Source of the DNA: a virus
IMG/VR virus record: IMGVR_UViG_3300045988_103180
DNA: 64,000 nt
Strand: one strand, 5' to 3'
Below, one piece after another: positions 5,457-41,251 of this stretch (the first letter of the stretch is position 1; each line of letters begins with the position of its first letter). The notes beneath the pieces were generated by a model that worked only from the letters and a program-made list of their open reading frames with translations, did not search any database and was not told the DNA's origin. Both the position numbers and the translations under genes were made by a program.

Positions 5457-5975
5457 CTATTCCAAATTAAAACGTGGCTTTTTCCTATAAATATTTACGT
5501 CTCTTGGCCGCACAAATACACGATGTTCATCTGTAATATCTGTATTCACTTGCCCTTCGCTCTGTACAGTTCTAATCTCTTCTAATCGTTTGAAATAATT
5601 TTCTGCTTCGACATAAATTGATTTGATAATCCATATGCCACCATTTGACCTACTCGGGTCATTACGCTTTATTTTATACCAATACTTTAAAGCCTTAGCC
5701 ATTTGCTCATATGTGATACCAGCTTTGATAAGTTGTCCCATATTCAAAGCTACTTTTTGATAATCTACATATGCACCGAGATATTTTCCAGCCATTTTCA
5801 TAACTGCTTCTCGTTGCTTTTTCAGCTTATCTTTATTTTTTTCTTTTTCCTCTTGGCTCTTGGCATAACATTCATCATGCCAATATCGGTTGCCAATCTT
5901 TTTCCAATCGAACTCACAATCACGGTCAATCATTTGGCCGCAATATGGACATTTAACAAGTCTTTGTTTTGCCAT
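5457..5975 (-). CDS. hypothetical zinc-ribbon protein (possible helicase partner)
   Basis: 172-aa ORF with CPYCGQ...HDEC. Lys-rich middle region. Sits immediately upstream of the helicase. Confidence 0.4.
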   Translation of the reverse strand: MAKQRLVKCPYCGQMIDRDCEFDWKKIGNRYWHDECYAKSQEEKEKNKDKLKKQREAVMKMAGKYLGAYVDYQKVALNMGQLIKAGITYEQMAKALKYWYKIKRNDPSRSNGGIWIIKSIYVEAENYFKRLEEIRTVQSEGQVNTDITDEHRVFVRPRDVNIYRKKPRFNLE

Positions 5976-17290: not shown

Positions 17291-18751
17291 TTAGAAGAGG
17301 TAGTTCTCGCTATCGTTGGCGTAGAAATGGTAGTTATCATTGATGTAGTCGTACAGCTTGCCGCCATTCTCTACGTATTTAAGCATCTTGAAGACGTTAT
17401 CGTTCAGAGCTGTCATGAGGTGGACGTCAGGATTGCCTGGATTAGCAATTTGGTCAGCATAGTTACCTAGGTCGAAACTATAAAGAATTGTGCGGCCATG
17501 TGTGGCACAATAATTATTATAGTTGCACATATCGTAAGTACTATCTCCCCAATAATGATACTGTCTTGCCATCACCTGCATATCAGAAACAACGAAGATG
17601 CGGTCGTACTTCTTATCACTGATAATACCGAAAGCAGGAGCAATGTCAGTTCCATAACCGCAATTATCGTTCTCACACATTTCACGAATGACTTGGAATG
17701 GGCCGCAAGCCTTCTTGAAAGTTGCAGACTTAGCACGATTGCCGAACTTTACAAAATCGCAATTACCATTAATGTAAAGAGCCGCAGCATAGCAAGCGCC
17801 AACTTCCTTGATAGTAAGATTGGACTTGTTACCGTAGCGGTCTTCCATCGAACCGGAAACATCAAGCATGATAACGGAATTACCTTCTAGCTTGGGCATA
17901 TTGCCGCAAGCAATACGGAAAGCAGTATCAAGTGCAGTGATAACTGCAAAGTTCTGAACATTTAGATTACGATAAGCAGTATAAATCTGATAAGGAAATA
18001 CAAGAGACTTCTTGATAGAAACCTCGTTAATAAGCTGGTCTACAAGATTACGCTTAATCCATTCGTCGTCAACGTCCTCTGCGAGAATGTTATTGAGATT
18101 ACGGATAAGAGCGAGATAACCGAGACGATTACCCTCAACCATATTCTTCCAACTGTTCTTGCCAGTGGAGATATTGACTTCCCAAGTATCAGCAGCTTCT
18201 AGCTTACCATTCATGTAACCATCAACAATGCCACTCTTGGGATGAATGATATTGATAAGGTCATACATGTTATAGCGCTTACCCTTCATCTGATACTTCA
18301 TAAGATTGTACTCAGAAAGACCAGACATATAATCTGCAAAACCACGAATCATAGCATGAGAACGCTTGCCACCAAGCATGTCAACAGCTGCGAAAATCTC
18401 AGACATATCATCAGGACGATGACAGAAAGCCTTATAGAAATCGCGCTTGCGCTCAAAGCTCTGACCATTCAGCATAGCCGCAACAAGCTGCGAAACACTA
18501 CGCATACCAAGTTGGTTTCGTGCAAACATGGCACACTTACCAGCGAACTCAGCGCCATACTTATCAATTACAAGATTCGTAAGTTCGATGAAACGAGTCT
18601 GCTGCGTGTCAGCATTCTCATAGAAACCATCGTCCATCTTGCTAGAGAACAAGAAATTCATCCAATCCTCAAGTACATCCTTCTTGTAATTCTCGCCGCC
18701 CTCGTATGACATAGAACGTTCGGTCTTAACCTTTTCATTAAACTTAGACAT
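17291..18751 (-). CDS. rsr: Ro60/Rsr ortholog (TROVE domain + vWA/MIDAS)
   Basis: YEGGENY..LEDWMNFLF..GFYE, LMKYQMKGKRYNMYDLINIIHPK, MIDAS IMLDVSGSM, GYGTDIAP, IFVVSDMQ. These line up with my recollection of Deinococcus Rsr. Confidence 0.75.
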   Translation of the reverse strand: MSKFNEKVKTERSMSYEGGENYKKDVLEDWMNFLFSSKMDDGFYENADTQQTRFIELTNLVIDKYGAEFAGKCAMFARNQLGMRSVSQLVAAMLNGQSFERKRDFYKAFCHRPDDMSEIFAAVDMLGGKRSHAMIRGFADYMSGLSEYNLMKYQMKGKRYNMYDLINIIHPKSGIVDGYMNGKLEAADTWEVNISTGKNSWKNMVEGNRLGYLALIRNLNNILAEDVDDEWIKRNLVDQLINEVSIKKSLVFPYQIYTAYRNLNVQNFAVITALDTAFRIACGNMPKLEGNSVIMLDVSGSMEDRYGNKSNLTIKEVGACYAAALYINGNCDFVKFGNRAKSATFKKACGPFQVIREMCENDNCGYGTDIAPAFGIISDKKYDRIFVVSDMQVMARQYHYWGDSTYDMCNYNNYCATHGRTILYSFDLGNYADQIANPGNPDVHLMTALNDNVFKMLKYVENGGKLYDYINDNYHFYANDSENYLF

Positions 18752-28765: not shown

Positions 28766-29713
28766 ATGAACGAAGTCGATATACTGCGTAATAGCTCGCT
28801 TGTGCGCGAGAAGCATCTTGCCAATGGAATCTCTTCTTTTAATTTCTCAAACAAGTGCTTTTTCAACCAAGCATGGGATGATATTAATGTTAAAGCACGC
28901 GGACTTTTTGTAAAAGATGATAATAAGGTTGTTGCACGTTCGTACAACAAGTTCTTCAATATTGGAGAGCGTCCTGAGACTGAAATGGCTAGCCTGCGCG
29001 AGAATCTTGTGTTCCCTGTGTGCGCATATGTCAAGTCTAACGGATTCCTTGCTATGATTTCTGCCGACCCGACCGAGGATGGTAAACTGTTCATCGCATC
29101 CAAGAGCACGAATGAGGGAGATTTCGCAGGATATATCCGTGACGTTCTTGACAAGACGTTGACCACTGCACAGCAGGAGGAATTCGCAGAATATCTGCAC
29201 AAGAATGACTGCACTGCTGTCTTCGAGTGCATTGACCCTATCCATGACCCGCATATCGTTGAGTATTCGCATCCTCACCTCGTGCTTTTGGACTTGGTGT
29301 ACAATGATTTTAACTATAGCCATGCGGGGTACTATACACTTATTGACGTAGCGGGACATTTCGGATTCTATTGCAAGGTTCTTAGCAAAGTCATTGCTAA
29401 CTGGCAGGAGTTTGAAGCCTTTATTGACAAGTGGGCCGCGTGTGCATACATCGAGGGCTTTGTCTTCGAGGATTCGAACGGTTTCATGGTGAAATATAAG
29501 ACTCCTTGGTACAAGAACTGGAAGCAGGTTCGTGGAGTTTTACAGCAGGTTTGGACTGGACGCGATATTGATACTATCAAGAACATCAAGACCAAGCTGG
29601 CATTTGAACCTCGTCTCATGGCCGCAATTCCTGAGTTCGTGGAAGAGTGCCGCGAGCAAGGTCGTGGAGCTTGCCCCTCGGTAATCGAATTGCGTAACTG
29701 GTTTGAAAATTAA
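28766..29713 (+). CDS. T4 Rnl1-like (RnlA/Trl1-type) tRNA-repair RNA ligase
   Basis: Colinear with T4 Rnl1 as I recall it: KARGLFV, YNKFFNIGERPE (MEKFFNLNENP), motif I YVKSNGFL, VFECIDP, IEGFVFEDSNGFMVKYKTPWY ([21 protein letters not shown]). Confidence 0.7.
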   Translation: MNEVDILRNSSLVREKHLANGISSFNFSNKCFFNQAWDDINVKARGLFVKDDNKVVARSYNKFFNIGERPETEMASLRENLVFPVCAYVKSNGFLAMISADPTEDGKLFIASKSTNEGDFAGYIRDVLDKTLTTAQQEEFAEYLHKNDCTAVFECIDPIHDPHIVEYSHPHLVLLDLVYNDFNYSHAGYYTLIDVAGHFGFYCKVLSKVIANWQEFEAFIDKWAACAYIEGFVFEDSNGFMVKYKTPWYKNWKQVRGVLQQVWTGRDIDTIKNIKTKLAFEPRLMAAIPEFVEECREQGRGACPSVIELRNWFEN

Positions 29714-32517: not shown

Positions 32518-32868
32518 ATGGATTTGTTTGTCAAAGATAAATATTACAATATTGACTCGAAGCGCGACTTGGACGTTTGCTTGAAAGAGAACGGCTTCAA
32601 TTATGATGAACTTGAGAATGTGATACTTTCCTATCATGCGGCAGATTATGCGCATGGCGTTGAAGGTCTAATTGGCGATGATTTATACGAGACACAGCAC
32701 GCTATCAACTCTGAGTTGAGTGACTTGGAAAACGAGATTAAGAATCTTAATGGTCGTTCGTGCAAGAATAACACTCGTGCGGATATTGCGAATCGACTTA
32801 GTGATATTTACGCCAATCTTATGGACTTAAACCTTTCCTGCCAAGTATATGACAGGGATACGCTGTAA
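32518..32868 (+). CDS. hypothetical protein
   Basis: 116-aa ORF behind GAGAGGAAGG. Confidence 0.45.
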   Translation: MDLFVKDKYYNIDSKRDLDVCLKENGFNYDELENVILSYHAADYAHGVEGLIGDDLYETQHAINSELSDLENEIKNLNGRSCKNNTRADIANRLSDIYANLMDLNLSCQVYDRDTL

Positions 32869-32878
32869 GGAGCTTTTT

Positions 32879-33412
32879 ATGGGACAAGACATTCATGTTT
32901 ATCTTGCTCGCAAGACTAGCGAGTATGCACAGAAGAATGGATGCGAAGAGTATTATCCGGTAGAGTTATTTTCTAAGTATTATAACAATGATGATGATAG
33001 TGTCGTGTATGAATATGCCCAGCCATACAATGGTCGCAATTATGAGCTGTTTTCTTGGCTCATGGATGGCAATGGTCGTGTATATGTAGATGAATCTGCT
33101 TGCCCCGTTGGTCTGTATTTTGACTATGATGGTCTTGTGCCGCAAAAGATTCTTAAAGAATGGGAAGACTGGGAAGAGGGCGGCGCATATGGATATAATG
33201 CTGTTATGCTCTCTGATATTATCAATCATTATAATGCAATTAGTTCTACTAAGTATGCGGTCGATGATATGCTTGGAAGTCATTCCTCTAACAATGAGCT
33301 TAAAGATAGTATCGGTGATTTCATCGAAGACATCAAGCGTTATTGTAGCATTGAAGGAGCATATTATCTAACTCCGCAGGATATTCTTGTTGTCTATTGG
33401 TTTGATAATTAA
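32879..33412 (+). CDS. hypothetical protein
   Basis: Start at the ATG at 32879 behind AAGGAG. 177 aa. Confidence 0.45.
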   Translation: MGQDIHVYLARKTSEYAQKNGCEEYYPVELFSKYYNNDDDSVVYEYAQPYNGRNYELFSWLMDGNGRVYVDESACPVGLYFDYDGLVPQKILKEWEDWEEGGAYGYNAVMLSDIINHYNAISSTKYAVDDMLGSHSSNNELKDSIGDFIEDIKRYCSIEGAYYLTPQDILVVYWFDN

Positions 33413-33421
33413 AAAAAGTTC

Positions 33422-33451
33422 TTGACAGACTTTATATCAATATGATATAAT
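33422..33451 (+). promoter_or_regulatory. sigma70-type promoter of the first tRNA transcription unit
   Basis: TTGACA-18-TATAAT. Confidence 0.55.
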
Positions 33452-33585
33452 ATTTTTAGTTACAAAATAAAAGTTCTGGACAAAAAGTTATAATTTTTGT
33501 TGCGCAACTTTTATATTGTAATAGTGGTGTTAGAGCCTGCAAGATTTCTAGAGTATTGCAGGCTCATTTTCTTTTAACATTCTGA

Positions 33586-33658
33586 GCTGCCGTAGCTCAA
33601 CTGGCAGAGCAGCTGATTTGTAATCAGCAGGTTGTAGATTCGATTTCTATCGGCAGCT
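33586..33658 (+). tRNA. tRNA-Thr(TGT)
   Basis: Acceptor GCTGCCG/CGGCAGC, D-arm GCTC..GAGC, anticodon loop TTTGTAA, T-loop TTCGATT. Confidence 0.85.
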
Positions 33659-33775
33659 CAGAGTGCTAATCTTAGACACTCTCCAAGTGGTAGTAGACCG
33701 AGCTTTGAACTCGCCTGTACTACCCCAAGTCAATTTTAGCGGTTTGGACAGTCGCTATATAAATTTGTCCATTTT

Positions 33776-33848
33776 TGGCTCTTCTTCTAACGGAATAGGA
33801 AAGTGCGCTCTGACCGCATTAATGAAAGTTCGAGTCTTTCAGAGCCAG
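33776..33848 (+). tRNA. tRNA-Gln(CTG)
   Basis: U1-A72 acceptor TGGCTCT/AGAGCCA (Gln-like), anticodon loop CTCTGAC, T-loop TTCGAGT. Confidence 0.6.
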
Positions 33849-33866
33849 CCTAGTTAAAAAAATTAC

Positions 33867-33895
33867 TTGACAAATACCAAGTAATTTTATATAAT
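33867..33895 (+). promoter_or_regulatory. sigma70-type promoter driving the permuted tRNA-like RNA 1
   Basis: TTGACA-17-TATAAT. The -35 lies in the palindrome AATTACTTG..CAAGTAATT. Confidence 0.55.
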
Positions 33896-33901
33896 ATAGT
33901 T

Positions 33902-34000
33902 AACAAATCGTGATGGTGAAGGTTCAGGTTCGACTCCTGCCGCTGTCCGACAAGGACGGCGTAGTTTCAATTGGTGAGAATAGCACCTAGCGATTGTGTT
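33902..34000 (+). ncRNA. circularly permuted tRNA-like RNA 1 (YrlA-class Y-RNA candidate)
   Basis: Terminal stem AACAAATCG/CGATTGTGTT with one bulge, then UGAU. T-arm CAGG-TTCGACT-CCTG. 8-bp acceptor-like stem CGCTGTCC/GGACGGCG closed by GACAA. D-arm GTTT-CAATTGGTGA-GAAT. Confidence 0.55.
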
Positions 34001-34370
34001 ATATCCAATGCTTGGGGAGAGGTTATCGCTGCAAGGTAAATGTCTCCCGACTTCTATAATCTTTTGCAGGGATTATAGATTAAAGGGTTGGCGGTTTTCC
34101 CAGTTTGAAACCGTCCACGTGATTATATTATCTTGCTTGCAAGATTTTATATATGCCGGCTCTGTAGCCGTAGACAATGCGGGCCAGCGCATACTTGAAA
34201 AGAAGCGCCTAGGGGAAGAGGAATCTGGTATATTTTGGTAGTTTTCAAACCTCTGCAGATGTGAAAACTACTACTTTAATTGCGGGTGGGAGGTCAGTAT
34301 CTCACGGAGTCTCATAAGCTCTGTTAAGTTTCGGCAGCAGAAACACCTCGCGACCAATTTTTGTTATAAA
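34001..34370 (+). ncRNA. ORF-free, hairpin-dense RNA segment of unknown class
   Basis: G+C-richer than its surroundings. Hairpins GGGGAGA..TCTCCC, TCTATAATC..GATTATAGA, ATCTTGC..GCAAGAT, GTAGTTTTCA..TGAAAACTAC. No RBS-preceded ORF. Confidence 0.35.
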
Positions 34371-34377
34371 AAATTAT

Positions 34378-34407
34378 TTGACAAATAGTTGAATAATTTG
34401 ATATAAT
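34378..34407 (+). promoter_or_regulatory. sigma70-type promoter
   Basis: TTGACA-18-TATAAT, within the palindrome AAATTATT..AATAATTT. Confidence 0.55.
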
Positions 34408-34569
34408 ATATCTAGAAGGAAAGGGAAAAAGGATAGTCAACAGTACCGTCAACAAACCAGTGACCCTGCGGCTTATTGCCAACACCCAGAAGTGTAATGC
34501 TTAGTACGCTGTTAGGTTTGACCATTTGTTTTCTTCTAGTGTAGTAAACCAAGAGAAAGGTAAGAAAGT

Positions 34570-34710
34570 ATGGCACAGTCAATCGAGACGATGGAACAGC
34601 GTTATCAGATGCTACTTAACCGCAAAGGTAAGAACTCAGAAAATGTAGGCATCATGCGCAAGCTACGCCGCAAGATTAACAAGGCAAAGCAGGGTGTCAT
34701 TCTTTCCTAA
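34570..34710 (+). CDS. hypothetical 46-aa basic protein
   Basis: Below the ORF-track cutoff. Leader CCAAGAGAAAGGTAAGAAAG before the ATG. MAQSIETMEQRYQMLLNRKGK... Confidence 0.4.
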   Translation: MAQSIETMEQRYQMLLNRKGKNSENVGIMRKLRRKINKAKQGVILS

Positions 34711-34724
34711 TTAAGTTTATTTAT

Positions 34725-34822
34725 TATGCGTGATGAGGGTTCAGTTACTTCGTGAAGATTTTATGGGATATTTTAAATGCGGTACGCTGCATTTGTTAGT
34801 CTGACCCCAATTTTTCCGCATA
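34725..34822 (+). ncRNA. repeat-family structured RNA, copy R0
   Basis: P1 TATGCG/CGCATA, UGAU, P2 GGGTTCAG/CTGACCCC, TTACTTCG, AATTTTTC. Confidence 0.55.
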
Positions 34823-34893
34823 TTTTTTCTTGACTTCTGGTCTATGTATATTATGATATAATATACATAGACCAAGAGAGAAAGAGGTTTGTT

Positions 34894-35049
34894 ATGAAGC
34901 AGTTCGTCATTTGTCGTGAAAAGACCTGCGGTATCTATTCAATTCGTGTCAACACTGATTGTTCTACTGTTCGTTTTGAGATAATCAAAGATTTCGACAC
35001 GTTTGAAGATGCAGACAACTACCTTCATAATATTCTTCTATATAAGTAA
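34894..35049 (+). CDS. hypothetical 51-aa protein
   Basis: Below the ORF-track cutoff. Leader CCAAGAGAGAAAGAGG. MKQFVICREKTCGIYSIRV... Confidence 0.4.
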   Translation: MKQFVICREKTCGIYSIRVNTDCSTVRFEIIKDFDTFEDADNYLHNILLYK

Positions 35050-35059
35050 TTCATTCTAT

Positions 35060-35128
35060 TGGAGTGTAATTCAGTTGGTAGAATGTTGTTAACTCAACGT
35101 GTCGCAGGTTCGAGTCCTGTCACTTCAA
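35060..35128 (+). tRNA. tRNA-like gene, Asn-paralog with truncated anticodon arm (pseudo-tRNA or mimic)
   Basis: Same acceptor 5' strand (TGGAGTG) as tRNA-Asn, with good D and T arms. Only 19 nt separate the D and T arms (4-bp stem GTTG/CAAC, 6-nt loop). Confidence 0.4.
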
Positions 35129-35157
35129 TAGAACAAAACGTGGCTTATCTACCCTGC

Positions 35158-35229
35158 TGGAGTGTAGCTCAATGGTAGAGCCTGCGGCTGTTAACCGCAT
35201 TGTTGTAGGTTCGAGTCCTACCATTCCAG
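35158..35229 (+). tRNA. tRNA-Asn(GTT)
   Basis: U1-A72 acceptor TGGAGTG/CATTCCA, anticodon loop CTGTTAA, T-loop TTCGAGT. Confidence 0.85.
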
Positions 35230-35280
35230 CAGAGTAGATAGCTACTCAATTTATCCAAAAGTAGAAAAGGAGCTTTGTAA

Positions 35281-35727
35281 ATGTCGTATCCTTATAAGGA
35301 TGAAGTATTGGCAACTAAATATGCTTATATTCCCGATGATGCGGCCAATGCTCCCGCTCGCAAAAAGAAAAAGACAGTGAAGAAAGCCAATCATAAGCAC
35401 GCTTACGATAAGAGTATTGTTATCAATTACTTTGATAAGTACGCTGGCACATGGACTTATGCCTATAGGAATGTTTGTACTATTTGCGGTCGTATCGGTG
35501 ATTTTGTTGATAATGAGGGAATTATCAAAAAGACTTTCCCGCATGTCAAGCCTAGCTGGTTTGGTTTTGCTGTTTCTTTTGGATATAACGATGAATTTGC
35601 TGAATTTACCGAGTGGTCAAAGACTTGGTATCCTCTGATTATTTGGAAAGACTATCAGCCTTTGGATGACAAGTTTATTCCAGACGAGTTTTTTGATATG
35701 CTTGGGATTCAGAAACAAACCAATTAA
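35281..35727 (+). CDS. hypothetical protein embedded in the tRNA island
   Basis: 148-aa ORF behind AAAGGAG. CTICGR. No family recognised. Confidence 0.45.
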   Translation: MSYPYKDEVLATKYAYIPDDAANAPARKKKKTVKKANHKHAYDKSIVINYFDKYAGTWTYAYRNVCTICGRIGDFVDNEGIIKKTFPHVKPSWFGFAVSFGYNDEFAEFTEWSKTWYPLIIWKDYQPLDDKFIPDEFFDMLGIQKQTN

Positions 35728-35731
35728 AGAT

Positions 35732-35825
35732 GCGCCGGCACTCCGATTGGCCTTGAGAGCGGGGACTCAAAATCCTTTGGCGGTAACCATTCCGCATGTC
35801 GGTCCGAATCCGACCCGGCGTACCA
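35732..35825 (+). tRNA. tRNA-Leu(CAA), type II, CCA encoded
   Basis: Acceptor GCGCCGG/CCGGCGT, anticodon loop CTCAAAA, long variable arm GCGG..CCGC, T-arm GTCGG-TCCGAAT-CCGAC. Confidence 0.6.
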
Positions 35826-35827
35826 TT

Positions 35828-35912
35828 GCCGCAGTATTCCTTTAAAGACGAGGGGAAGACTGTAAATCTTCTGTCTATGACTGGCTAGGAGCGTTACCTA
35901 GATGCGGCACCA
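35828..35912 (+). tRNA. tRNA-Tyr(GTA)-like gene with non-canonical T-loop and D-arm, CCA encoded
   Basis: Anticodon arm GAAGA-CTGTAAA-TCTTC is canonical. The T-arm CTAGG-AGCGTTA-CCTAG lacks TTC, and the 7th acceptor pair is mismatched. Confidence 0.35.
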
Positions 35913-35920
35913 ATGTTTAT

Positions 35921-35996
35921 TAAATGCGTGATTAAGATTCAGTTACTTCGTATGGGCTTATGTATTGTAACACTGAATCTAACTTTTCCGCATTTA
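35921..35996 (+). ncRNA. repeat-family structured RNA, copy R1
   Basis: P1 AAATGCG/CGCATTT, UGAU, P2 AGATTCAG/CTGAATCT, TTACTTCG, AACTTTTC. Confidence 0.55.
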
Positions 35997-36008
35997 TTTG
36001 TTTACCAT

Positions 36009-36114
36009 AATGCGTGATAATAAATCAGTTACTTCATTCTGGAAAAATGCGCTTGCAGGTTCGACTCCTGCTCTGTATCGGTATACATTTTACTGATTTA
36101 GCCTTTTCCGCATT
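36009..36114 (+). ncRNA. repeat-family structured RNA, copy R2 (carries a T-arm-like insert)
   Basis: P1 AATGCG/CGCATT, UGAU, P2 TAAATCAG/CTGATTTA, TTACTTCA. Insert GCAGG-TTCGACT-CCTGC plus hairpin TGTAT-cggt-ATACA. Confidence 0.55.
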
Positions 36115-36130
36115 TACTTTATTAAAGTAG

Positions 36131-36212
36131 GCGATACGTGATAACGTTTCAGATACTTCAAATCTCCATTCTGAGCTGATTACTCAAACTGAAACACCTA
36201 TTTCCGTATCGC
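36131..36212 (+). ncRNA. repeat-family structured RNA, copy R3
   Basis: P1 GCGATACG/CGTATCGC, UGAU, P2 GTTTCAG/CTGAAAC, ATACTTCA. The insert shares CATTCTGAGCTG with the tRNA-Thr 5' end. Confidence 0.55.
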
Positions 36213-36222
36213 TTTCTCTTGT

Positions 36223-36334
36223 GCGGCAAGTGATTAGTAAAGAGTTACTTCGTTATATGATATGTTTAAATAAGAGCAACTTTCACTAGAAAGAGGCAAC
36301 CCCACCTATACTCTTTACACTTTTTCCTTACCGT
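36223..36334 (+). ncRNA. repeat-family structured RNA, copy R4
   Basis: P1 GCGGCAAG/CTTACCGT (one mismatch), UGAU, P2 GTAAAGAG/CTCTTTAC, TTACTTCG, ACTTTTTC. Confidence 0.5.
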
Positions 36335-36386
36335 TATTTGTAAACCCCTTTCTCGCCTATATAGTGTGCGAGCTATATAGACACAA

Positions 36387-36467
36387 ATGTGCGTGATTAT
36401 TATTCAGTTACTTCATATAGCAATTTTTATGACCATCCAACACTGAATAAACTTTTTCCGCACACAT
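36387..36467 (+). ncRNA. repeat-family structured RNA, copy R5
   Basis: P1 ATGTGCG/CGCACA(ca)T, UGAU, P2 TTATTCAG/CTGAATAA, TTACTTCA, ACTTTTTC. Confidence 0.55.
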
Positions 36468-36478
36468 TGATATTTTAT

Positions 36479-36506
36479 AGGGACTCTTTTGAGTCCCTAT
36501 TTTTTG
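36479..36506 (+). terminator. rho-independent terminator
   Basis: AGGGACTC-tttt-GAGTCCCT followed by ATTTTTTG. Confidence 0.6.
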
Positions 36507-36536
36507 TTGACTATTGGCTATATATTATGCTATAAT
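36507..36536 (+). promoter_or_regulatory. sigma70-type promoter
   Basis: TTGACT-18-TATAAT. Confidence 0.55.
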
Positions 36537-36563
36537 ATATTTAAGAAATCGAAAGGAGATTCA

Positions 36564-37100
36564 ATGAGCATCTTTGTAGTCAGTGACACTCATTTTTCGC
36601 ATCAGAATATTATCAATTATTGTGAGAAGTCGCGTGCTTTTAATACGGTTGATGACATGAACGAAGACATCATCGAAAGGTGGAATTCCGTTGTATCTCC
36701 TGATGATACTATCTATCATCTTGGTGATTGCTTCATGGGACCGCTTGAGACTGTAGCTAAATATGGTTCTCATCTCAATGGAAAGGTTCATGTGATTCCC
36801 GGCAATCATGATACCAAGAAACGCATTGCTGAAATGGAAAAGCTCGGCTGGATTATTGAAAACAAGGTATCTTGTCTTGATTACAATGATGTCAGTTTCA
36901 TTATGATTCACGAGCGCCCCGAGGAAATGCGTGGAGACAGCGCCAATGTCATTCTATACGGTCATGTTCATGATGCGGCTCCCAAGGGCCTTGTTGATTG
37001 GACATATCATGTAGGTGTTGACACTAATAATCTTACTCCTGTTAATATTCATGACATTTGGCTCGATGTCCAGCAGAAGAAGATTGAGCTTGGAGAGTAA
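36564..37100 (+). CDS. calcineurin-like metallophosphoesterase
   Basis: MSIFVVSDTHFSH, YHLGDCF, IPGNHD, GHVH. Start at 36564 behind GAAAGGAG. Confidence 0.75.
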   Translation: MSIFVVSDTHFSHQNIINYCEKSRAFNTVDDMNEDIIERWNSVVSPDDTIYHLGDCFMGPLETVAKYGSHLNGKVHVIPGNHDTKKRIAEMEKLGWIIENKVSCLDYNDVSFIMIHERPEEMRGDSANVILYGHVHDAAPKGLVDWTYHVGVDTNNLTPVNIHDIWLDVQQKKIELGE

Positions 37101-37955: not shown

Positions 37956-38855
37956 ATGAAAGTAGCGGTTATGAATTTTAAGACTTTTGAAGGAAATTCT
38001 GGCGATATATGGAAGTATGTCTTTACGAAAGAAGATATGGTCGCCGAAGCGGTTCTATATAAATATAATAGTTACTACGATAGAACTGTAATTTGTTGCA
38101 GCGTTATGAGTGGTTGTCCTGTTGGATGTCTCTTTTGCGGCACTGGTTCTAAATTTGTTAGGAATCTTACTGCTGATGAAATTGTAGATCAGATTGTAAC
38201 CGTCTTAACTAATAAAGGTTTAATTAATGACATTAATGAAAAGTGTAAAAAATTACAGTTTATGTTTATGAGCATGGGTGAGCCTATGTTAAATTGGGTA
38301 GAAGTTGAAAAAGCAATTGTCAATCTTCATAAAAAGTTTAGTAATGCTCAGTTACTACTTTCGACTATTGGCTGTGATAATGATGAAACTTTTGCAAAGA
38401 TGATTGCTCTATCTAAGAAGATAGATAAAATTGGTTTGCAATTTTCTATTCATAAGTCCAATGACGCAGAGCGGAATGTGTTAATTCCATTCAAGAAGAA
38501 AATGAATCTTCAAAAGATTAGGGATGTTGGAACTGTTTGGTGGAAAGAAACCGGTAGGCATCCATTCTTAAACTACTGCATTGATGGAACGAATAATGAA
38601 GATAAGAACTTTAAAGAACTTACAGACCTGTTTTCTCCTGTAATCTTTAATTTTACTTTTAGTGTAGTTTGCGCATCTGATGAAACTATGAAAGATGCTG
38701 CGTTTAGAAACTTAGATGTTATTAAGAAGTTTCAGGATAAGTTCTTAGAAAAGGGTTATAATGTAAGGACATTTGACCCAGCTGGTCAAGATGATATTGG
38801 TGGTGGGTGCGGCCAGCTTTGGTATGTTCAGAAGTGGCTAAAGTCTCACCAATAG
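37956..38855 (+). CDS. RlmN/Cfr-family radical-SAM RNA (adenine C2/C8) methyltransferase, N-terminally short
   Basis: SGCPVGCLFCGTGSKFVRNLTADEIVDQIV (RlmN GCALECKFCSTAQ..RNL..EI..Q), FMSMGEPMLN, and the C-terminal catalytic Cys region GQDDIGGGCGQLW. Confidence 0.7.
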   Translation: MKVAVMNFKTFEGNSGDIWKYVFTKEDMVAEAVLYKYNSYYDRTVICCSVMSGCPVGCLFCGTGSKFVRNLTADEIVDQIVTVLTNKGLINDINEKCKKLQFMFMSMGEPMLNWVEVEKAIVNLHKKFSNAQLLLSTIGCDNDETFAKMIALSKKIDKIGLQFSIHKSNDAERNVLIPFKKKMNLQKIRDVGTVWWKETGRHPFLNYCIDGTNNEDKNFKELTDLFSPVIFNFTFSVVCASDETMKDAAFRNLDVIKKFQDKFLEKGYNVRTFDPAGQDDIGGGCGQLWYVQKWLKSHQ

Positions 38856-38963: not shown

Positions 38964-38993
38964 TTGACAATTGCATATTGAATATGATATAAT
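38964..38993 (+). promoter_or_regulatory. sigma70-type promoter driving permuted tRNA-like RNA 2 and the tRNA cluster
   Basis: TTGACA-18-TATAAT. Confidence 0.55.
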
Positions 38994-39003
38994 ATAGTTA
39001 TCA

Positions 39004-39097
39004 AGTCGAGCATAGAGCAGATGTGGGTTCGACTCCCATCCTTGCCCGACAAGGGCGAGGTAGTTTAATTGGTTAAATACGGTTCTTACGTTCGACT
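39004..39097 (+). ncRNA. circularly permuted tRNA-like RNA 2 (YrlA-class Y-RNA candidate)
   Basis: Terminal stem AGTCGAG/TTCGACT. T-arm GTGGG-TTCGACT-CCCAT. 8-bp acceptor-like stem CCTTGCCC/GGGCGAGG closed by GACAA. D-arm GTTT-AATTGGTT-AAAT. Confidence 0.55.
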
Positions 39098-39214
39098 AGA
39101 TATATAGAAAATATAGGAAATAGCTTAACCCTATATTTTCAACTTCTAAAGCCTAGCTAGCTTTAGATTAAAAGGTTCGCAACTATCCTTAAAATGGTTG
39201 CCACTAGTGACGGT

Positions 39215-39286
39215 GTGTTAGTAGTTTAACTGGCAGAATTGCAAGGTGACGTTCTTGAGATTGGAGTTCGAATCTCCACTAGCGCA
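39215..39286 (+). tRNA. tRNA-like gene with 8-nt anticodon loop (Val-GAC-like)
   Basis: Acceptor GTGTTAG/CTAGCGC (two G-U pairs), D-arm GTTT..GAAT, T-arm TGGAG-TTCGAAT-CTCCA. The anticodon stem CAAG/CTTG encloses GTGACGTT. Confidence 0.4.
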
Positions 39287-39294
39287 CGAAAATT

Positions 39295-39723: not shown

Positions 39724-40500
39724 ATGGATGTAATTATGTGTAATTATATTGACCACATTGATGCTGTTATTACTCATTATTGTAATTTTAACTGTCCTTT
39801 TTGTATTGATAAATTTAAAACAAATATTAAGAATCCTCAGAATGAATTTAATAAAGAATATTTTAATGATTTTTTAAATTCTTTAAATAAAAAAGAAAGT
39901 TCTGGCGATATTAAGATTAATTCTAATCGTGAGGTTCTATTTTTGGGTGGTGAACCAACAACTGTTGGTTTTAATTTACTGAAGGATTATGCTAATATTG
40001 TTAGTCGTAATGGTTTTCATCCAATTATATCAACTAATGGTGTTGATAAAAACACAATTAAAAAGATTCTTCCATATTTCGATTGGGTACAGGTAACGGC
40101 TCATAGCAAGAAAGAGATTGATGAATGGCGTACGTATAATACGTATGGGAATATCAATCTTAAAATTGCTGGAGATAGTCATTTTACGTATGATAAGTTA
40201 AATTATTTAATTGATAATTGTAAAGATTTTACTCGTCGTAGCGTATCCATGTATTTTACAAAAGATTTTGTTGAATTATGTAAAGATAAAGAAATTTGGA
40301 ATCTTTTAGATTCTTTAAATAATTGGAAAACCAATGGAAGTTACGAGTATGCTTTTTATAAAGATGTTCGTATTAAGAAATGTATACATGGATTAACAAA
40401 TATTATTGATGAACCCACTGTCCCAAAGATTTATGATAAGAAATATAATAAAACATGGGATAATGAAGAATTAGATGATTATTTAAATCTATTTATATAG
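39724..40500 (+). CDS. radical-SAM enzyme of unknown specificity
   Basis: CNFNCPFC (CxxxCxxC) near the N-terminus. VLFLGGEPT SAM-binding motif. Very AT-rich codons. Confidence 0.65.
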   Translation: MDVIMCNYIDHIDAVITHYCNFNCPFCIDKFKTNIKNPQNEFNKEYFNDFLNSLNKKESSGDIKINSNREVLFLGGEPTTVGFNLLKDYANIVSRNGFHPIISTNGVDKNTIKKILPYFDWVQVTAHSKKEIDEWRTYNTYGNINLKIAGDSHFTYDKLNYLIDNCKDFTRRSVSMYFTKDFVELCKDKEIWNLLDSLNNWKTNGSYEYAFYKDVRIKKCIHGLTNIIDEPTVPKIYDKKYNKTWDNEELDDYLNLFI

Positions 40501-41251
40501 TTTAAGACAGTATTAAATACAGAATAATGATAACTCGCAGCGCTTCTTTATAGCGAAACTTGACAGAGAGAGGTTTAATACTGTTTATAATGGGGGCATG
40601 GATATAGTCATGATGTAGCTAGATTCTCATGGATGATGACAGCTTAACCAATTCTGGTTCGAGTCCAGGCGTGTCTTAGCTTAGACGGAAAATAAGCAGC
40701 CATGTGTTTATGATTATGTTATTTTGCAAAAGACATGTAGTGTAATTGGCAACACGCCCTACTTTCGGAGTAGATAACCAGCGGGGAGCTGGGTTTGCCT
40801 GCTAAGCAAAACGTGCTTATTATAAGCATTCGGGTCGGAACCGAATTACTCCGCCATATAATACCTGCCCCTATTGGCAGTGGTTTTTAAGATTTTCCCG
40901 AAAAAAATCTTTTGCGGTAGAATAGGCAACGCCGCACAGCTATTCGAGAGGATAGCGAGCCTTCTCGCTAGGAGATAAGCGAGTGCTTTCACGGAGTAAT
41001 TGGTGAGCTGAAACACCGTAAAAACAGACCCTCTGGATGCGCCGTGAATACGCATCCTGCTTTGGCTAATCAACTGGTCCAGCGACTAGGCCCGCCTAGA
41101 AAGCGGTGCGTTCCCAAGAGGGAATGGAGGGCAGCACTTCGGTTAGCCGCCATAAGGAAGCAGAACCGGACCAGTGTTCGGACTCGCCTCGAAAGCGATG
41201 TGTCCCGCGAGGGATGGGTAGCGTCAACTCCTGCTTCTGCCATATATTACG
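40501..41251 (+). ncRNA. large ornate structured RNA (GOLLD/ROOL-class candidate) with an embedded permuted tRNA-like module
   Basis: About 750 nt, G+C-richer, no RBS-preceded ORF. Many short hairpins, several tetraloop-capped (TCCC-gcga-GGGA, TTCCC-aaga-GGGAA, GGATGCG..CGCATCC, AGCGAG..CTCGCT). Long-range pair ACAGTATTAAA (40507) / TTTAATACTGT (40575). Confidence 0.5.

What the first reader, a model, noticed from the sequence alone, without database searches (positions are those of the whole stretch)
33867..34000. Promoter-driven, circularly permuted tRNA-like RNA (Y-RNA/YrlA candidate 1)
A consensus promoter (TTGACA-17-TATAAT) places the start at about 33902, which is exactly where a terminal stem begins (AACAAATCG / CGATTGTGTT, one bulged G).

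Inside the stem, the order of elements is a tRNA opened at the anticodon and closed at the acceptor end:
- UGAU
- a 4-bp GGTG/CACC helix
- a T-arm, CAGG-TTCGACT-CCTG
- an 8-bp acceptor-like helix, CGCTGTCC/GGACGGCG, capped by GACAA
- TA
- a D-arm with a GG loop, GTTT-CAATTGGTGA-GAAT

Bacterial YrlA-class Y RNAs are known to carry a tRNA-like module on top of a Ro60-binding stem, and they are usually encoded near rsr. This phage encodes a Ro60 ortholog.
Basis: partly seen in the sequence, partly recalled or inferred. Interest (0 to 1): 0.85.

Follow-up and report, generated by a model that had tools for sequence, protein, structure and literature searches.

The report
Phage permuted tRNA-His-like small RNA
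A gut phage that encodes a Ro60-type RNA-binding protein also carries a small RNA with its own promoter that folds like a tRNA-His closed at the acceptor end and opened at the anticodon; it is a compact relative of bacterial YrlA "Y RNAs", and whether it binds Ro60 still needs an experiment.

Summary
A perfect TTGACA-17-TATAAT promoter (33867-33895) precedes a ~99-nt RNA (33902-34000). The RNA has a terminal stem, a 4-5 bp anticodon-like stem, a T arm, a closed 8-bp acceptor-like hairpin and a D arm.

A covariance model built only from a 74%-identical paralog (39000-39101) finds it at 54 bits (E 3e-11). Across 24 distinct homologs, 92% of cells pair, against 35-46% in slid controls, and 22 of 33 pairs change on both sides.

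Re-permuted in silico, both paralogs are called tRNA-His(GUG), each with a G-1:C73 pair.

The YrlA reading is only partly supported. The architecture matches, the phage encodes a TROVE/Ro60 protein, and sister-clade phages carry permuted tRNA-like RNAs directly upstream of TROVE. However, this RNA gets no Rfam YrlA hit. It lacks the GNCGAA, YUAY and UUUUCC stem motifs and the near-invariant YrlA D arm. It lies 15 kb from TROVE on the opposite strand, and 4 of 22 relatives that keep TROVE lack it. Six separate cassette RNAs at 34.7-36.5 kb do carry the Ro-adjacent stem motifs.

Best reading: a stand-alone tRNA-mimic module of the YrlA kind. It is a new variant of a known kind; Ro60 binding is plausible but unproven.

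The parts
33867..33895 (+). Sigma-70-type promoter of candidate 1: TTGACA, 17 nt, TATAAT, with an A-tract upstream.
   Evidence: 12/12 consensus match. It is one of 14 perfect promoters of this type in the window and is conserved in all 18 homologs.
33902..34000 (+). Candidate 1 RNA: a compact, circularly permuted tRNA-His-like small RNA.
   Evidence: R1, trained on the paralog only, scores it 54.2 bits, E 3e-11. Covariation is shown. Folding z = -2.58. After re-permutation ARAGORN calls tRNA-His(GUG).
33902..33910 (+). Terminal stem P1, 5' strand (AACAAATCG). It pairs with 33991-34000 (CGATTGTGTT, G33996 bulged).
   Evidence: Sequence. MFE structure. P1 pairs co-vary between the paralog families, for example A-U to U-A at pair 2.
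33911..33918 (+). UGAU junction plus the anticodon-like stem 5' strand GGUG, which pairs with CACC 33984-33987. The 3' junction is UAG 33988-33990.
   Evidence: The stem extends to 5 bp (AGGUG/CACCU) in L025, L031 and L075. The composite loop UAG|UGAU matches the E. coli tRNA-His anticodon loop UUGUGAU at 6 of 7 positions (plus own knowledge of the E. coli sequence).
33925..33939 (+). T arm: CAGG, TTCGACT, CCTG.
   Evidence: The stem co-varies (CAGG/CCTG, CGGG/CCCG, TGGG/CCCA) while the loop is invariant.
33941..33961 (+). Closed acceptor-like hairpin: CGCTGTCC, GACAA, GGACGGCG. It forms 7 bp plus a G-1:C73-like pair.
   Evidence: Seven of its 8 pairs change on both sides across the families. 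It is degraded or replaced in the L041 class.
33962..33981 (+). UA junction and D arm with a GG loop.
38964..38993 (+). Promoter of paralog candidate 2: TTGACA, 18 nt, TGnTATAAT.
39000..39101 (+). Candidate 2: a paralog with the same architecture, about 74% identical, lying immediately upstream of a 7-tRNA cluster.
   Evidence: Covariation within its own family reaches 95.5% of cells paired, against 27-47% in slid controls. R1 scores it 126.7 bits. After re-permutation ARAGORN calls tRNA-His(GUG).
40651..40758 (+). Candidate 3 core: T arm, an acceptor-like helix with a 52-nt insertion, UA, and a D arm (GTGT-AATTGGCA-ACAC).
   Evidence: R1 scores it 19.7 bits, E 0.017. Sequence.
17291..18751 (-). 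TROVE/Ro60-like protein (486 aa, with a DxSxS MIDAS-type motif). It has its own 12/12 promoter at 18818-18789 and a terminator at 17274-17251.
35922..36468 (+). Array of five Y-RNA-stem cassettes (units 2-6: about 35922-35994, 36008-36114, 36131-36212, 36223-36334, 36386-36468). A sixth, unit 1, lies at about 34725-34822. Each unit is P1, GUGAU, P2, WUACUUC, insert, P2', UUUUCC, P1'.
   Evidence: A descriptor search found 4 hits in the window, 7 in 93.5 kb next to TROVE genes of other phages, and 0 in 1.01 Mb of control phage DNA.

Best explanation
Candidate 1 is a real, independently transcribed small RNA of about 100 nt. It is a circularly permuted tRNA-His-like molecule.

What the sequence and comparisons show:
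- The T arm, D arm and the elbow-forming nucleotides (U8, A14, G18, G19, the T-loop UUCGA, and an A15:U48 pair) are kept.
- The acceptor stem is closed by a 5-nt loop.
- The anticodon loop is replaced by a 9-bp helix formed by the RNA's own 5' and 3' ends.
- This is the architecture of the tRNA-like "effector" domain of YrlA-class bacterial Y RNAs, here sitting on a minimal stem.

What is inferred:
- It acts as a tRNA mimic within the phage's Ro60 and RNA-repair gene set.
- Most likely the terminal stem, with its 5' (A/G)UCG-UGAU segment, docks on the phage Ro60 ring, while the tRNA-like elbow recruits a tRNA-binding host factor. That factor could be a nuclease such as PNPase or RNase P, or a modification or repair enzyme. 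This would follow the model proposed for YrlA and shown for the Ro60-Y RNA-PNPase complexes of D. radiodurans and phage phiLo.
- The 5' end is the transcription start. The 3' end must come from processing, because no terminator follows the stem.
For: Structure:
- R1, a model built from six candidate 2 sequences only, detects candidate 1 at 54.2 bits, E 3e-11.
- On 24 distinct sequences 92% of cells pair, against 35-46% in slid controls. 22 of 33 pairs change on both sides, and 0 of 500 shuffles reach the observed score.
- On the gapless MAFFT alignment of candidate 2 alone, 95.5% of cells pair against 27-47%.
- The promoter is a perfect consensus and is conserved.
- Variation concentrates in the acceptor-like hairpin, as in YrlA.

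tRNA identity:
- ARAGORN calls the re-permuted candidate 1 and candidate 2 tRNA-His(GUG).
- Both carry an extra G-1:C73-like pair (sequence; cloverleaf layout).

Link to Ro60:
- The phage encodes a TROVE protein with the same promoter type.
- In phages whose TROVE is 55% and 63% identical, R1 hits lie 132 nt and 53 nt upstream of TROVE on the same strand (28.8 and 20.5 bits). These are also the only Rfam YrlA sub-threshold hits there.
- In the unrelated phages Atuin, GiJojo and csAssE-Sib, the R1 core hits lie within about 0.5 kb of the Ro gene.
- R1 gives no hit at E<=1 in 856 kb of control phage DNA.

Context:
- The neighbourhood encodes T4-type RNA ligase 1 and a metallophosphoesterase.
- In the sister clade, TROVE sits between two RNA ligases and a kinase.
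Against: - Rfam YrlA gives no hit at E<=10.
- The D arm (UUUC...GAGA) is not the near-invariant YrlA GCUC...GAGC.
- The 5' segment AUCGUGAUG matches GNCGAAN0-1G only at C and G.
- There is no YUAY/WUACUUC motif and no UUUUCC strand, although every Ro-adjacent phage RNA inspected has them.
- The RNA is 15.2 kb from TROVE on the opposite strand. Chen 2014 required a distance of at most 4 kb on the same strand.
- Four of 22 relatives retain TROVE but lack candidate 1.
- Six cassette RNAs in the window carry the Ro-adjacent stem motifs and are better Ro60 ligand candidates.
- There are no expression or binding data.
Confidence: 0.55

Rival explanations
1. A Ro60-independent tRNA decoy. The stand-alone tRNA-His-like body titrates or redirects a host factor that recognises the tRNA elbow or acceptor region. 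Candidates are RNase P, TruB or Dus enzymes, the CCA-adding enzyme, HisRS, or a tRNA-directed defence nuclease. The six cassette RNAs would be the true Ro60 partners.
For: - Candidate 1 lacks most Ro-adjacent stem motifs, which the cassette units carry.
- It is unlinked from TROVE and is dispensable in relatives that keep TROVE.
- The tRNA-His features G-1:C73 and the GUG remnant are kept in both paralogs.
- It sits among tRNA genes and RNA-repair genes.
Against: - There is no anticodon loop, so it cannot act as bait for anticodon nucleases.
- The closed acceptor end offers no 3' CCA unless the RNA is processed.
- Permuted tRNA-like modules track TROVE genes in every other phage examined.
- The terminal stem sequence is conserved between the paralogs (A[A/U]CAA[A/G]UCG), which suggests a sequence-specific partner for the stem.
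Confidence: 0.22
2. A cis-acting 5' module of a polycistronic RNA operon. The tRNA-like fold directly after the transcription start would protect the 5' end or seed RNase P/RNase Z processing of the downstream RNAs.
For: - Neither paralog is followed by a terminator.
- Candidate 1 is followed by a 280-nt, 95-98% conserved structured RNA and a tRNA(CAU)-like module within the same promoter-to-promoter unit.
- Candidate 2 is followed by hairpins and seven tRNAs.
- The deletions in relatives remove whole promoter-bounded units.
Against: - Other tRNA clusters and cassette arrays in the window have no such leader.
- The closed terminal stem defines a self-contained molecule.
- L029 deletes candidate 1 but keeps most of the downstream RNA.
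Confidence: 0.1
3. A true circularly permuted tRNA-His gene. The terminal stem would be excised and the ends sealed by the phage RNA ligase. RNase P and 3' trimming plus CCA addition would then open the acceptor loop to give a working tRNA-His.
For: - After re-permutation both paralogs give tRNA-His(GUG), and both carry a G-1:C73-like pair.
- The acceptor helix has 7+1 bp. M. smegmatis YrlA, with a 7-bp stem, is cut by RNase P and CCA-tailed in vivo.
- The phage encodes Rnl1 and a phosphoesterase.
- Ordinary tRNA-finding tools found no tRNA-His in the window.
- Wang 2018 raises this possibility for YrlA RNAs.
Against: - The composite loop has A33 in candidate 1, and is a non-canonical 9-nt loop with C33/C37 in candidate 2.
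- Two variants read AUG instead of GUG.
- Four candidate 2 variants have A-1:U73.
- The L041 class of candidate 1 has lost the 3' acceptor strand yet is conserved in eight distinct sequences.
- No bacterial or phage enzyme is known that excises such a stem.
Confidence: 0.05
4. A decaying remnant of tandem tRNA genes with no function.
For: - It lies in a tRNA cluster.
- The acceptor hairpin is variable or degraded in many relatives.
- L038 carries a T-stem mismatch and a 3-nt insertion.
- It is absent from 4 of 22 relatives.
Against: - It has its own perfect, conserved promoter.
- Compensatory changes occur in all helices.
- The T loop and D loop are invariant across two paralog families that are only 74% identical.
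- The same design recurs next to TROVE in distant phages.
Confidence: 0.06

Closest known systems
YrlA (Y RNA-like A; Rfam RF02553; Chen et al. 2014, PMC4201824; crystal structure in Wang et al. 2018)
   Same: - The element order is the same: 5'/3' terminal stem, anticodon-like stem, variable region, T arm, closed acceptor-like hairpin, UA, D arm.
- The elbow nucleotides and an A15:U48 Levitt-type pair are present.
- The acceptor-like hairpin is the variable part.
- It is encoded by a genome that has a Ro60 ortholog, among tRNA genes.
   Different: - Rfam gives no hit.
- There is no GNCGAAN0-1G and no YUAY.
- The middle helix (P2) with its internal loops is missing, so the stem is 9 bp + 4-5 bp only.
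- The D arm sequence is not the YrlA-invariant one.
- It is 15 kb from Ro60 on the other strand.
- It has an explicit tRNA-His signature.
Ro-adjacent phage Y RNAs (Atuin, GiJojo, csAssE-Sib and the sister-clade gut phages L228/L229 examined here; phiLo Yrl1/Yrl2, PMC12135203)
   Same: - A permuted T arm, closed hairpin and D arm core, detected by the same model R1.
- Phage origin, with sigma-70-type promoters.
- Placement in tRNA-rich regions.
   Different: - Those RNAs are wrapped in a cassette: P1, GUGAU or CGAWG, P2, WUACUUC, then UUUUCC and P1'.
- They sit within 0.5 kb of the Ro gene on its strand.
- Candidate 1 keeps only CGUGAU.
- In this phage the cassette occurs as separate RNAs without a tRNA-like cargo.
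M. smegmatis YrlA (RNase P-cleaved, CCA-tailed; Chen 2014)
   Same: A full-length acceptor-like helix, 7 bp there and 7+1 bp here. This is the determinant that Chen et al. link to RNase P cleavage.
   Different: Cleavage is untested here. The M. smegmatis RNA has the canonical Ro-binding stem and lies next to rsr.
Circularly permuted tRNA genes of Cyanidioschyzon merolae and some archaea (Soma 2007, as cited)
   Same: - The 3' half comes before the 5' half.
- The acceptor ends are joined by a short loop.
- The transcript ends pair to extend the anticodon stem.
- Re-permutation gives a recognisable tRNA.
   Different: - There is no bulge-helix-bulge motif, and no splicing endonuclease is known in bacteria or phages.
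- The composite anticodon loop is non-canonical (A33).
- The acceptor helix has decayed in many relatives.
D. radiodurans Yrn1-type Y RNAs
   Same: A Y RNA with tRNA-like T-arm features.
   Different: Yrn1 keeps the normal D to T order with an anticodon-like arm between them. The csAssE-Sib cassettes that wrap annotated "tRNA-Lys/Tyr" look like that type. Candidate 1 is the permuted type.

Membership tests
YrlA (Chen 2014 / Rfam RF02553) | T and D stem-loops in the order T, then acceptor-like stem-loop, then D, with the tRNA elbow nucleotides. | tested here: met
   Sequence. Covariation in all helices. The T loop UUCGACU and the GG of the D loop are invariant.
YrlA (Chen 2014 / Rfam RF02553) | Near-invariant D-arm and T-arm sequences (GCUC...GGUAGAGC; GGUUCGAnnCC). 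| tested here: inconclusive
   The T loop matches. The D arm is UUUC-AAUUGGU-GAGA (or GUUU...GAAU), not GCUC...GAGC. The sister-clade Ro-adjacent RNAs do have GCUC...GAGC.
YrlA (Chen 2014 / Rfam RF02553) | GNCGAAN0-1G motif near the 5' end (the putative Ro60 contact). | tested here: not met
   Candidate 1 has AUCGUGAUG, which matches only C and G. The window's candidate 2 has GUCGAGC, matching 5 of the first 6 positions.
YrlA (Chen 2014 / Rfam RF02553) | YUAY at the start of the variable region, and a multi-helix stem with internal loops. | tested here: not met
   There is no YUAY or WUACUUC. The stem is P1 (9 bp) plus a 4-5 bp helix only.
YrlA (Chen 2014 / Rfam RF02553) | Encoded within 4 kb of the Ro60 ortholog on the same strand. 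| tested here: not met
   15.2 kb away on the opposite strand. The sister clades do meet this criterion with their own RNAs.
YrlA (Chen 2014 / Rfam RF02553) | Score at or above the Rfam gathering threshold (69 bits). | tested here: not met
   No hit at E<=10. This test is weak, because bona fide Ro-adjacent phage RNAs also score only 26-32 bits.
Y RNA (functional definition) | Bound by Ro60. | not testable with these tools
   Requires RIP-seq or EMSA with the 17291-18751 protein.
Canonical tRNA gene | Contiguous cloverleaf with an anticodon loop and a free acceptor end. | tested here: not met
   Neither ARAGORN nor the Rfam tRNA model calls it. Only the re-permuted sequence is called, as tRNA-His(GUG).
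Circularly permuted tRNA gene (C. merolae type) | Re-permutation gives a tRNA with a canonical 7-nt anticodon loop (U33, R37) and a conserved acceptor stem; a bulge-helix-bulge motif at the junction. | tested here: not met
   - A33 in candidate 1, and a 9-nt loop in candidate 2.
- The acceptor helix is degraded in the L041 class.
- The junction is a 4x3 internal loop, not a bulge-helix-bulge.
Ro-adjacent phage Y-RNA stem cassette (defined here) | P1, GUGAU or CGAWG, P2 (7 bp), WUACUUC, cargo, P2', UUUYC, P1'. | tested here: not met
   The descriptor finds units 2, 3, 4 and 6 but not candidate 1 or 2. Candidate 1 shares only CGUGAU.

The most novel reading that the evidence does not exclude
This phage lineage has taken the YrlA design apart. 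The Ro60-binding stem survives as an array of six cargo-less cassette RNAs. The tRNA-like effector survives as two or three free-standing permuted tRNA-His molecules. These have a full 7+1-bp acceptor helix with G-1:C73, so RNase P could open them and a CCA tail could be added, as happens to M. smegmatis YrlA. The product would be a two-piece RNA that HisRS could charge, or, after stem excision and sealing by the phage Rnl1 ligase, a working tRNA-His. That would be the first permuted tRNA maturation pathway in a bacterial virus.
Probability: 0.08. Interest if true: 0.88.

Novelty: new variant of a known kind. Interest (0 to 1): 0.58.

Why it matters
Bacterial Y RNAs are understood as two modules on one molecule: a Ro60-binding stem and a tRNA-like effector domain whose partner is still unknown. 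Here a family of gut phages carries the tRNA-like module alone, on a minimal stem, in two or three copies that each have their own strong promoter. The same genome carries the stem module alone in six tandem copies.

If the compact RNAs still bind Ro60, they define the minimal Ro60 ligand. If they do not, they show that the tRNA mimic has a job of its own. Either outcome gives a clean handle for finding the elbow-binding effector.

The tRNA-His signature (G-1:C73 and a GUG remnant) points to specific testable partners: RNase P, the CCA-adding enzyme, HisRS and Tgt. The work also shows that the Rfam YrlA model misses most phage Y RNAs, and that a simple cassette descriptor finds them.

Tried and rejected
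1. Rfam at the gathering and E-value thresholds gave no YrlA hit for candidate 1. The only YrlA hit in the window (35083-35211, 36 bits) spans the T arm of one tRNA and the D arm of the next. This is the tandem-tRNA artefact that Chen 2014 warns about.

2. Megablast of 33400-36400 against GenBank phages found only a tRNA-Thr fragment. The exact 22-mer of candidate 1 is absent from IMG/VR.

3. An IMG/VR scan for the T-loop...D-arm pattern returned 59 loci. Every hit outside this phage group is a pair of adjacent tRNAs.

4. An IMG/VR scan for GTGAT..WTACTTC..TTTTCC was uninformative. Only 2 of 119 loci pass a pairing check. I reused those loci as about 1 Mb of control DNA.

5. MAFFT could not align the 3' halves of the two paralog families. 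I therefore built the model from one family and let it align the other.

6. Coding potential was rejected. ORF 33996-34241 is broken by a 4-nt indel in L028, and the substitutions there are compensatory within hairpins.

7. Blastn of the re-permuted candidate 1 against phages gave no match.

8. Re-permutation of the compact RNA in the sister clade (L228 18747-18850) gives His(GUG) only at a relaxed ARAGORN threshold and with a shifted, poor acceptor stem. I give it little weight.

9. The apparent sharing of CGUGAU between candidate 1 and the cassette units is a 6-nt match and is not decisive.
Full report
**1. The observation**

- TTGACA (33867-72), a 17-nt spacer and TATAAT (33890-95) form a 12/12 consensus promoter.
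- It is one of 14 perfect promoters of this type in the 64-kb window.
- It places the start at about A33902, the first base of a 9-bp terminal stem (AACAAATCG / CGATTGTGTT, G33996 bulged).
- Inside the stem come UGAU, GGUG/CACC, a T arm (CAGG-UUCGACU-CCUG), an 8-bp hairpin (CGCUGUCC-GACAA-GGACGGCG), UA and a D arm with a GG loop.
- The 99-nt RNA folds at -32.4 kcal/mol (z = -2.58; 2 of 200 shuffles fold as well).
- The permuted cloverleaf is 4-6 kcal/mol above the MFE. This is normal for folds held together by tertiary contacts.
- ARAGORN and the Rfam tRNA model do not call it a tRNA.

**2. Is the structure real?**

Related IMG/VR phages (contigs of about 80-147 kb, mostly from one metagenome) were fetched through the TROVE protein and through the ORF at 32849-33412.
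- 18 of 22 loci carry a homolog of the RNA, giving 15 distinct sequences at 84-97% identity.
- The window also holds a paralog, candidate 2, at 39000-39101. It has its own TTGACA-18-TGnTATAAT promoter and is about 74% identical.
- A gapless alignment of six candidate 2 sequences supports the five-helix structure. 95.5% of cells pair, against 27-47% when partners are slid, and 6 pairs change on both sides.
- A covariance model built from those six sequences alone (R1) finds candidate 1 at 54.2 bits, E 3e-11. Candidate 1 was not in the training set.
- R1 also finds a third, insertion-bearing copy at 40651-40758 (19.7 bits).
- On all 49 matches (24 distinct), 92% of cells pair against 35-46% in slid controls. 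22 of 33 pairs change on both sides, and no shuffle out of 500 reaches the observed values.
- That larger alignment is fitted to the model, so it leans towards the structure. Only two paralog lineages with a few variants each contribute.
- Even so, every helix shows compensatory change while the T loop and the GG of the D loop never vary.
- The acceptor-like hairpin is the variable part. It is a perfect 8 bp in the window class, rebuilt with different sequences in candidate 2 variants, and reduced to 3-4 bp after a deletion in the L041 class.

**3. A tRNA-His turned inside out**

I removed the terminal stem, joined the anticodon-side ends and opened the acceptor loop in silico.
- ARAGORN then calls both candidate 1 and candidate 2, and six variants, tRNA-His. 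The anticodon is GUG in six and AUG in two.
- Both window copies have the extra G-1:C73 pair that is the hallmark of bacterial tRNA-His (established knowledge).
- The composite loop of candidate 1, UAG|UGAU, differs from the E. coli tRNA-His loop UUGUGAU only at position 33.
- The resemblance is not complete. Candidate 1 has A33 instead of U33, candidate 2 has a 9-nt loop, four candidate 2 variants have A-1:U73, and the L041 class has lost the acceptor helix.
- These defects argue that the RNA is a tRNA-His-derived mimic rather than a tRNA precursor.
- Wang et al. 2018 already describe YrlA RNAs as resembling circularly permuted tRNAs and propose an origin from dimeric tRNA transcripts.

**4. 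The Ro60 link**

*The protein.* The ORF at 17291-18751 (minus strand) is a TROVE protein.
- Pfam gives 3.8e-15, and the best solved relative is the Ro60 of Thermus phage phiLo (1.8e-22).
- That protein binds phage-encoded Y-like RNAs and host PNPase.
- The window's TROVE gene has its own perfect promoter and terminator.

*Membership tests for YrlA fail.*
- Rfam YrlA gives no hit at E<=10 on a 141-nt slice.
- The only YrlA hit in the window is a tandem-tRNA artefact.
- The GNCGAAN0-1G and YUAY motifs of Chen 2014 are absent.
- The RNA is 15.2 kb from TROVE on the other strand.

*The Rfam test is weak.* RNAs that lie next to Ro genes in Arthrobacter phage Atuin and in two sister-clade gut phages score only 26-32 bits against a threshold of 69.

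*Comparative evidence for a link.*
- R1's core (T arm, closed hairpin, D arm) hits within about 0.5 kb of the Ro gene in Atuin (29.8 bits), Streptomyces phage GiJojo (23.9 bits) and the crAss-like phage csAssE-Sib (23.1 bits).
- In phages whose TROVE is 55% and 63% identical to the window's, the R1 hits lie 132 nt and 53 nt upstream of TROVE on the same strand.
- 856 kb of unrelated phage DNA gave no R1 hit at E<=1.

**5. What weakens the Y RNA reading**

All those Ro-adjacent RNAs share a stem cassette. It consists of a closing helix P1, then GUGAU (or CGAAG/CGAUG), a 7-8 bp helix P2, then WUACUUC (the YUAY of Chen 2014), the tRNA-like cargo, P2', a UUUUCC-type strand, and P1'.
- Candidate 1 has only CGUGAU from this set.
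- The window contains six RNAs with the complete cassette but without a tRNA-like cargo. One lies at about 34725-34822, and five form a tandem array at 35922-36468 that ends in a terminator. Unit 3 holds a lone T arm.
- A descriptor that requires WUACUUC, a perfect 7-bp P2, UUUYC and a 5-bp P1 finds 4 of these units. It also finds 7 sites in 93.5 kb flanking TROVE genes of other phages, all on the TROVE strand, and none in 1.01 Mb of control phage DNA.
- So in this lineage the two YrlA modules appear on separate transcripts, and the cassette RNAs are the more obvious Ro60 ligands.
- Four relatives (L027, L029, L034, L040) keep TROVE but have lost candidate 1 through deletions, two or three of which run close to promoter-to-promoter. 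L034 still has candidate 2.

**6. Context**

- The promoter-to-promoter unit that begins with candidate 1 continues with a 280-nt noncoding stretch (34011-34290). It is 95-98% conserved, more than candidate 1 itself, and shows compensatory changes in its hairpins.
- The unit ends with a tRNA(CAU)-like module that is swapped for a canonical-looking tRNA in some relatives.
- No terminator directly follows candidate 1 or candidate 2, so their 3' ends must come from processing. Candidate 2 precedes seven tRNAs.
- Nearby genes encode T4-type RNA ligase 1, a metallophosphoesterase and two radical-SAM enzymes.
- In the sister clade, TROVE lies between two RNA ligases and a kinase.
- The theme is tRNA and RNA repair, as in the bacterial rsr-yrlBA-rtcBA operon (established knowledge).

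**7. Verdict**

- The feature is real and well supported as a structured, independently transcribed tRNA mimic.
- It works like the effector domain of YrlA, but it fails most membership criteria of that family. I therefore class it as a new variant of a known kind.
- Direct Ro60 binding is plausible, at about even odds. It is not shown.
- The strongest rival is a Ro60-independent tRNA decoy.
- The most novel reading is RNase P opening, CCA addition and possible charging or religation into tRNA-His. It is not excluded but is disfavoured by the non-canonical loop and by the decayed acceptor helices in relatives.

Noticed in passing
window 34725-34822, 35922-35994, 36008-36114, 36131-36212, 36223-36334, 36386-36468 (+): Six small-RNA units share the same layout: P1, GUGAU, P2, CAG-UUACUUC, a 23-60 nt insert, P2', UUUUCC, P1'. 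P1 and P2 co-vary. The same cassette flanks the tRNA-like RNAs next to Ro/TROVE genes in unrelated phages. These units are probably the phage's canonical Y-RNA stems, without the tRNA domain.
   Followed up: partly
window 39000-39101 (+) and 40651-40758 (+): Two further permuted tRNA-like RNAs. Candidate 2 has its own promoter and sits upstream of seven tRNAs. A third copy has a 52-nt insertion in the acceptor loop and may lie within a ~270-nt RNA at 40596-40873 closed by GGGGCA/TGCCCC.
   Followed up: partly
window 34011-34290 (+): A 280-nt noncoding stretch directly after candidate 1 is 95-98% conserved among relatives, with compensatory changes in at least two hairpins. It has no Rfam match. 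It is an unknown structured RNA in the same transcription unit.
   Followed up: partly
window 34290-34365 (+): A tRNA(CAU)-like module with a non-canonical T arm, missed by ARAGORN and Rfam. In L045, L028, L031 and L024 it is replaced by a canonical-looking tRNA(CAU) with a TTCGACT T loop.
   Followed up: no
window 35060-35128 and 39215-39287 (+): Two odd tRNA-like genes. One has a truncated anticodon arm (Rfam 44 bits, not called by ARAGORN). The other is called with a 4-nt anticodon (gacg). The sub-threshold Rfam YrlA hit at 35083-35211 is a tandem-tRNA artefact.
   Followed up: no
window 28766-29713, 36489-37100, 37956-38855, 39724-40500 (+); L228 5725-12551: RNA-repair and tRNA-related genes surround the RNA cluster: T4-type RNA ligase 1, a metallophosphoesterase and two radical-SAM enzymes. 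In the sister clade the TROVE gene lies between a PF09414 RNA ligase and Rnl1, with a KTI12/AAA_33 kinase nearby.
   Followed up: partly
L107 (phage csAssE-Sib) 5787-5915 and about 5640-5760: The annotated tRNA-Lys and tRNA-Tyr just upstream of the Ro gene sit inside GUGAU...UUACUUC...UUUUCC cassettes. The tRNA-Lys has a poor acceptor stem, so it may be a Yrn1-type Y RNA mis-annotated as a tRNA.
   Followed up: partly
window 34834-34878: A perfect 16-bp palindrome (GGTCTATGTATATTAT..ATAATATACATAGACC) overlaps a promoter-like site upstream of the small ORF 34894-35049. It looks like an operator, and it drew spurious microRNA hits in Rfam.
   Followed up: no
window, 14 sites (e.g. 22061, 30198, 33422, 34378, 41291 on +; 19671, 18818, 17244, 15876, 6028 on -): Fourteen perfect TTGACA-N16-18-TATAAT promoters, most with TG-extended -10 elements and upstream A-tracts. 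About 0.02 are expected by chance. The repeated promoters appear to act as recombination points for gain and loss of RNA modules (L040, L034).
   Followed up: partly
L228 18747-18850 and 18300-18740: The sister-clade phage has a compact candidate-1-like RNA (9-bp closing stem, no cassette) next to tRNA-Thr and tRNA-Gln, the same neighbours as in the window. It is preceded by a tRNA-like element and about 400 nt of GC-rich noncoding sequence of unknown nature.
   Followed up: partly
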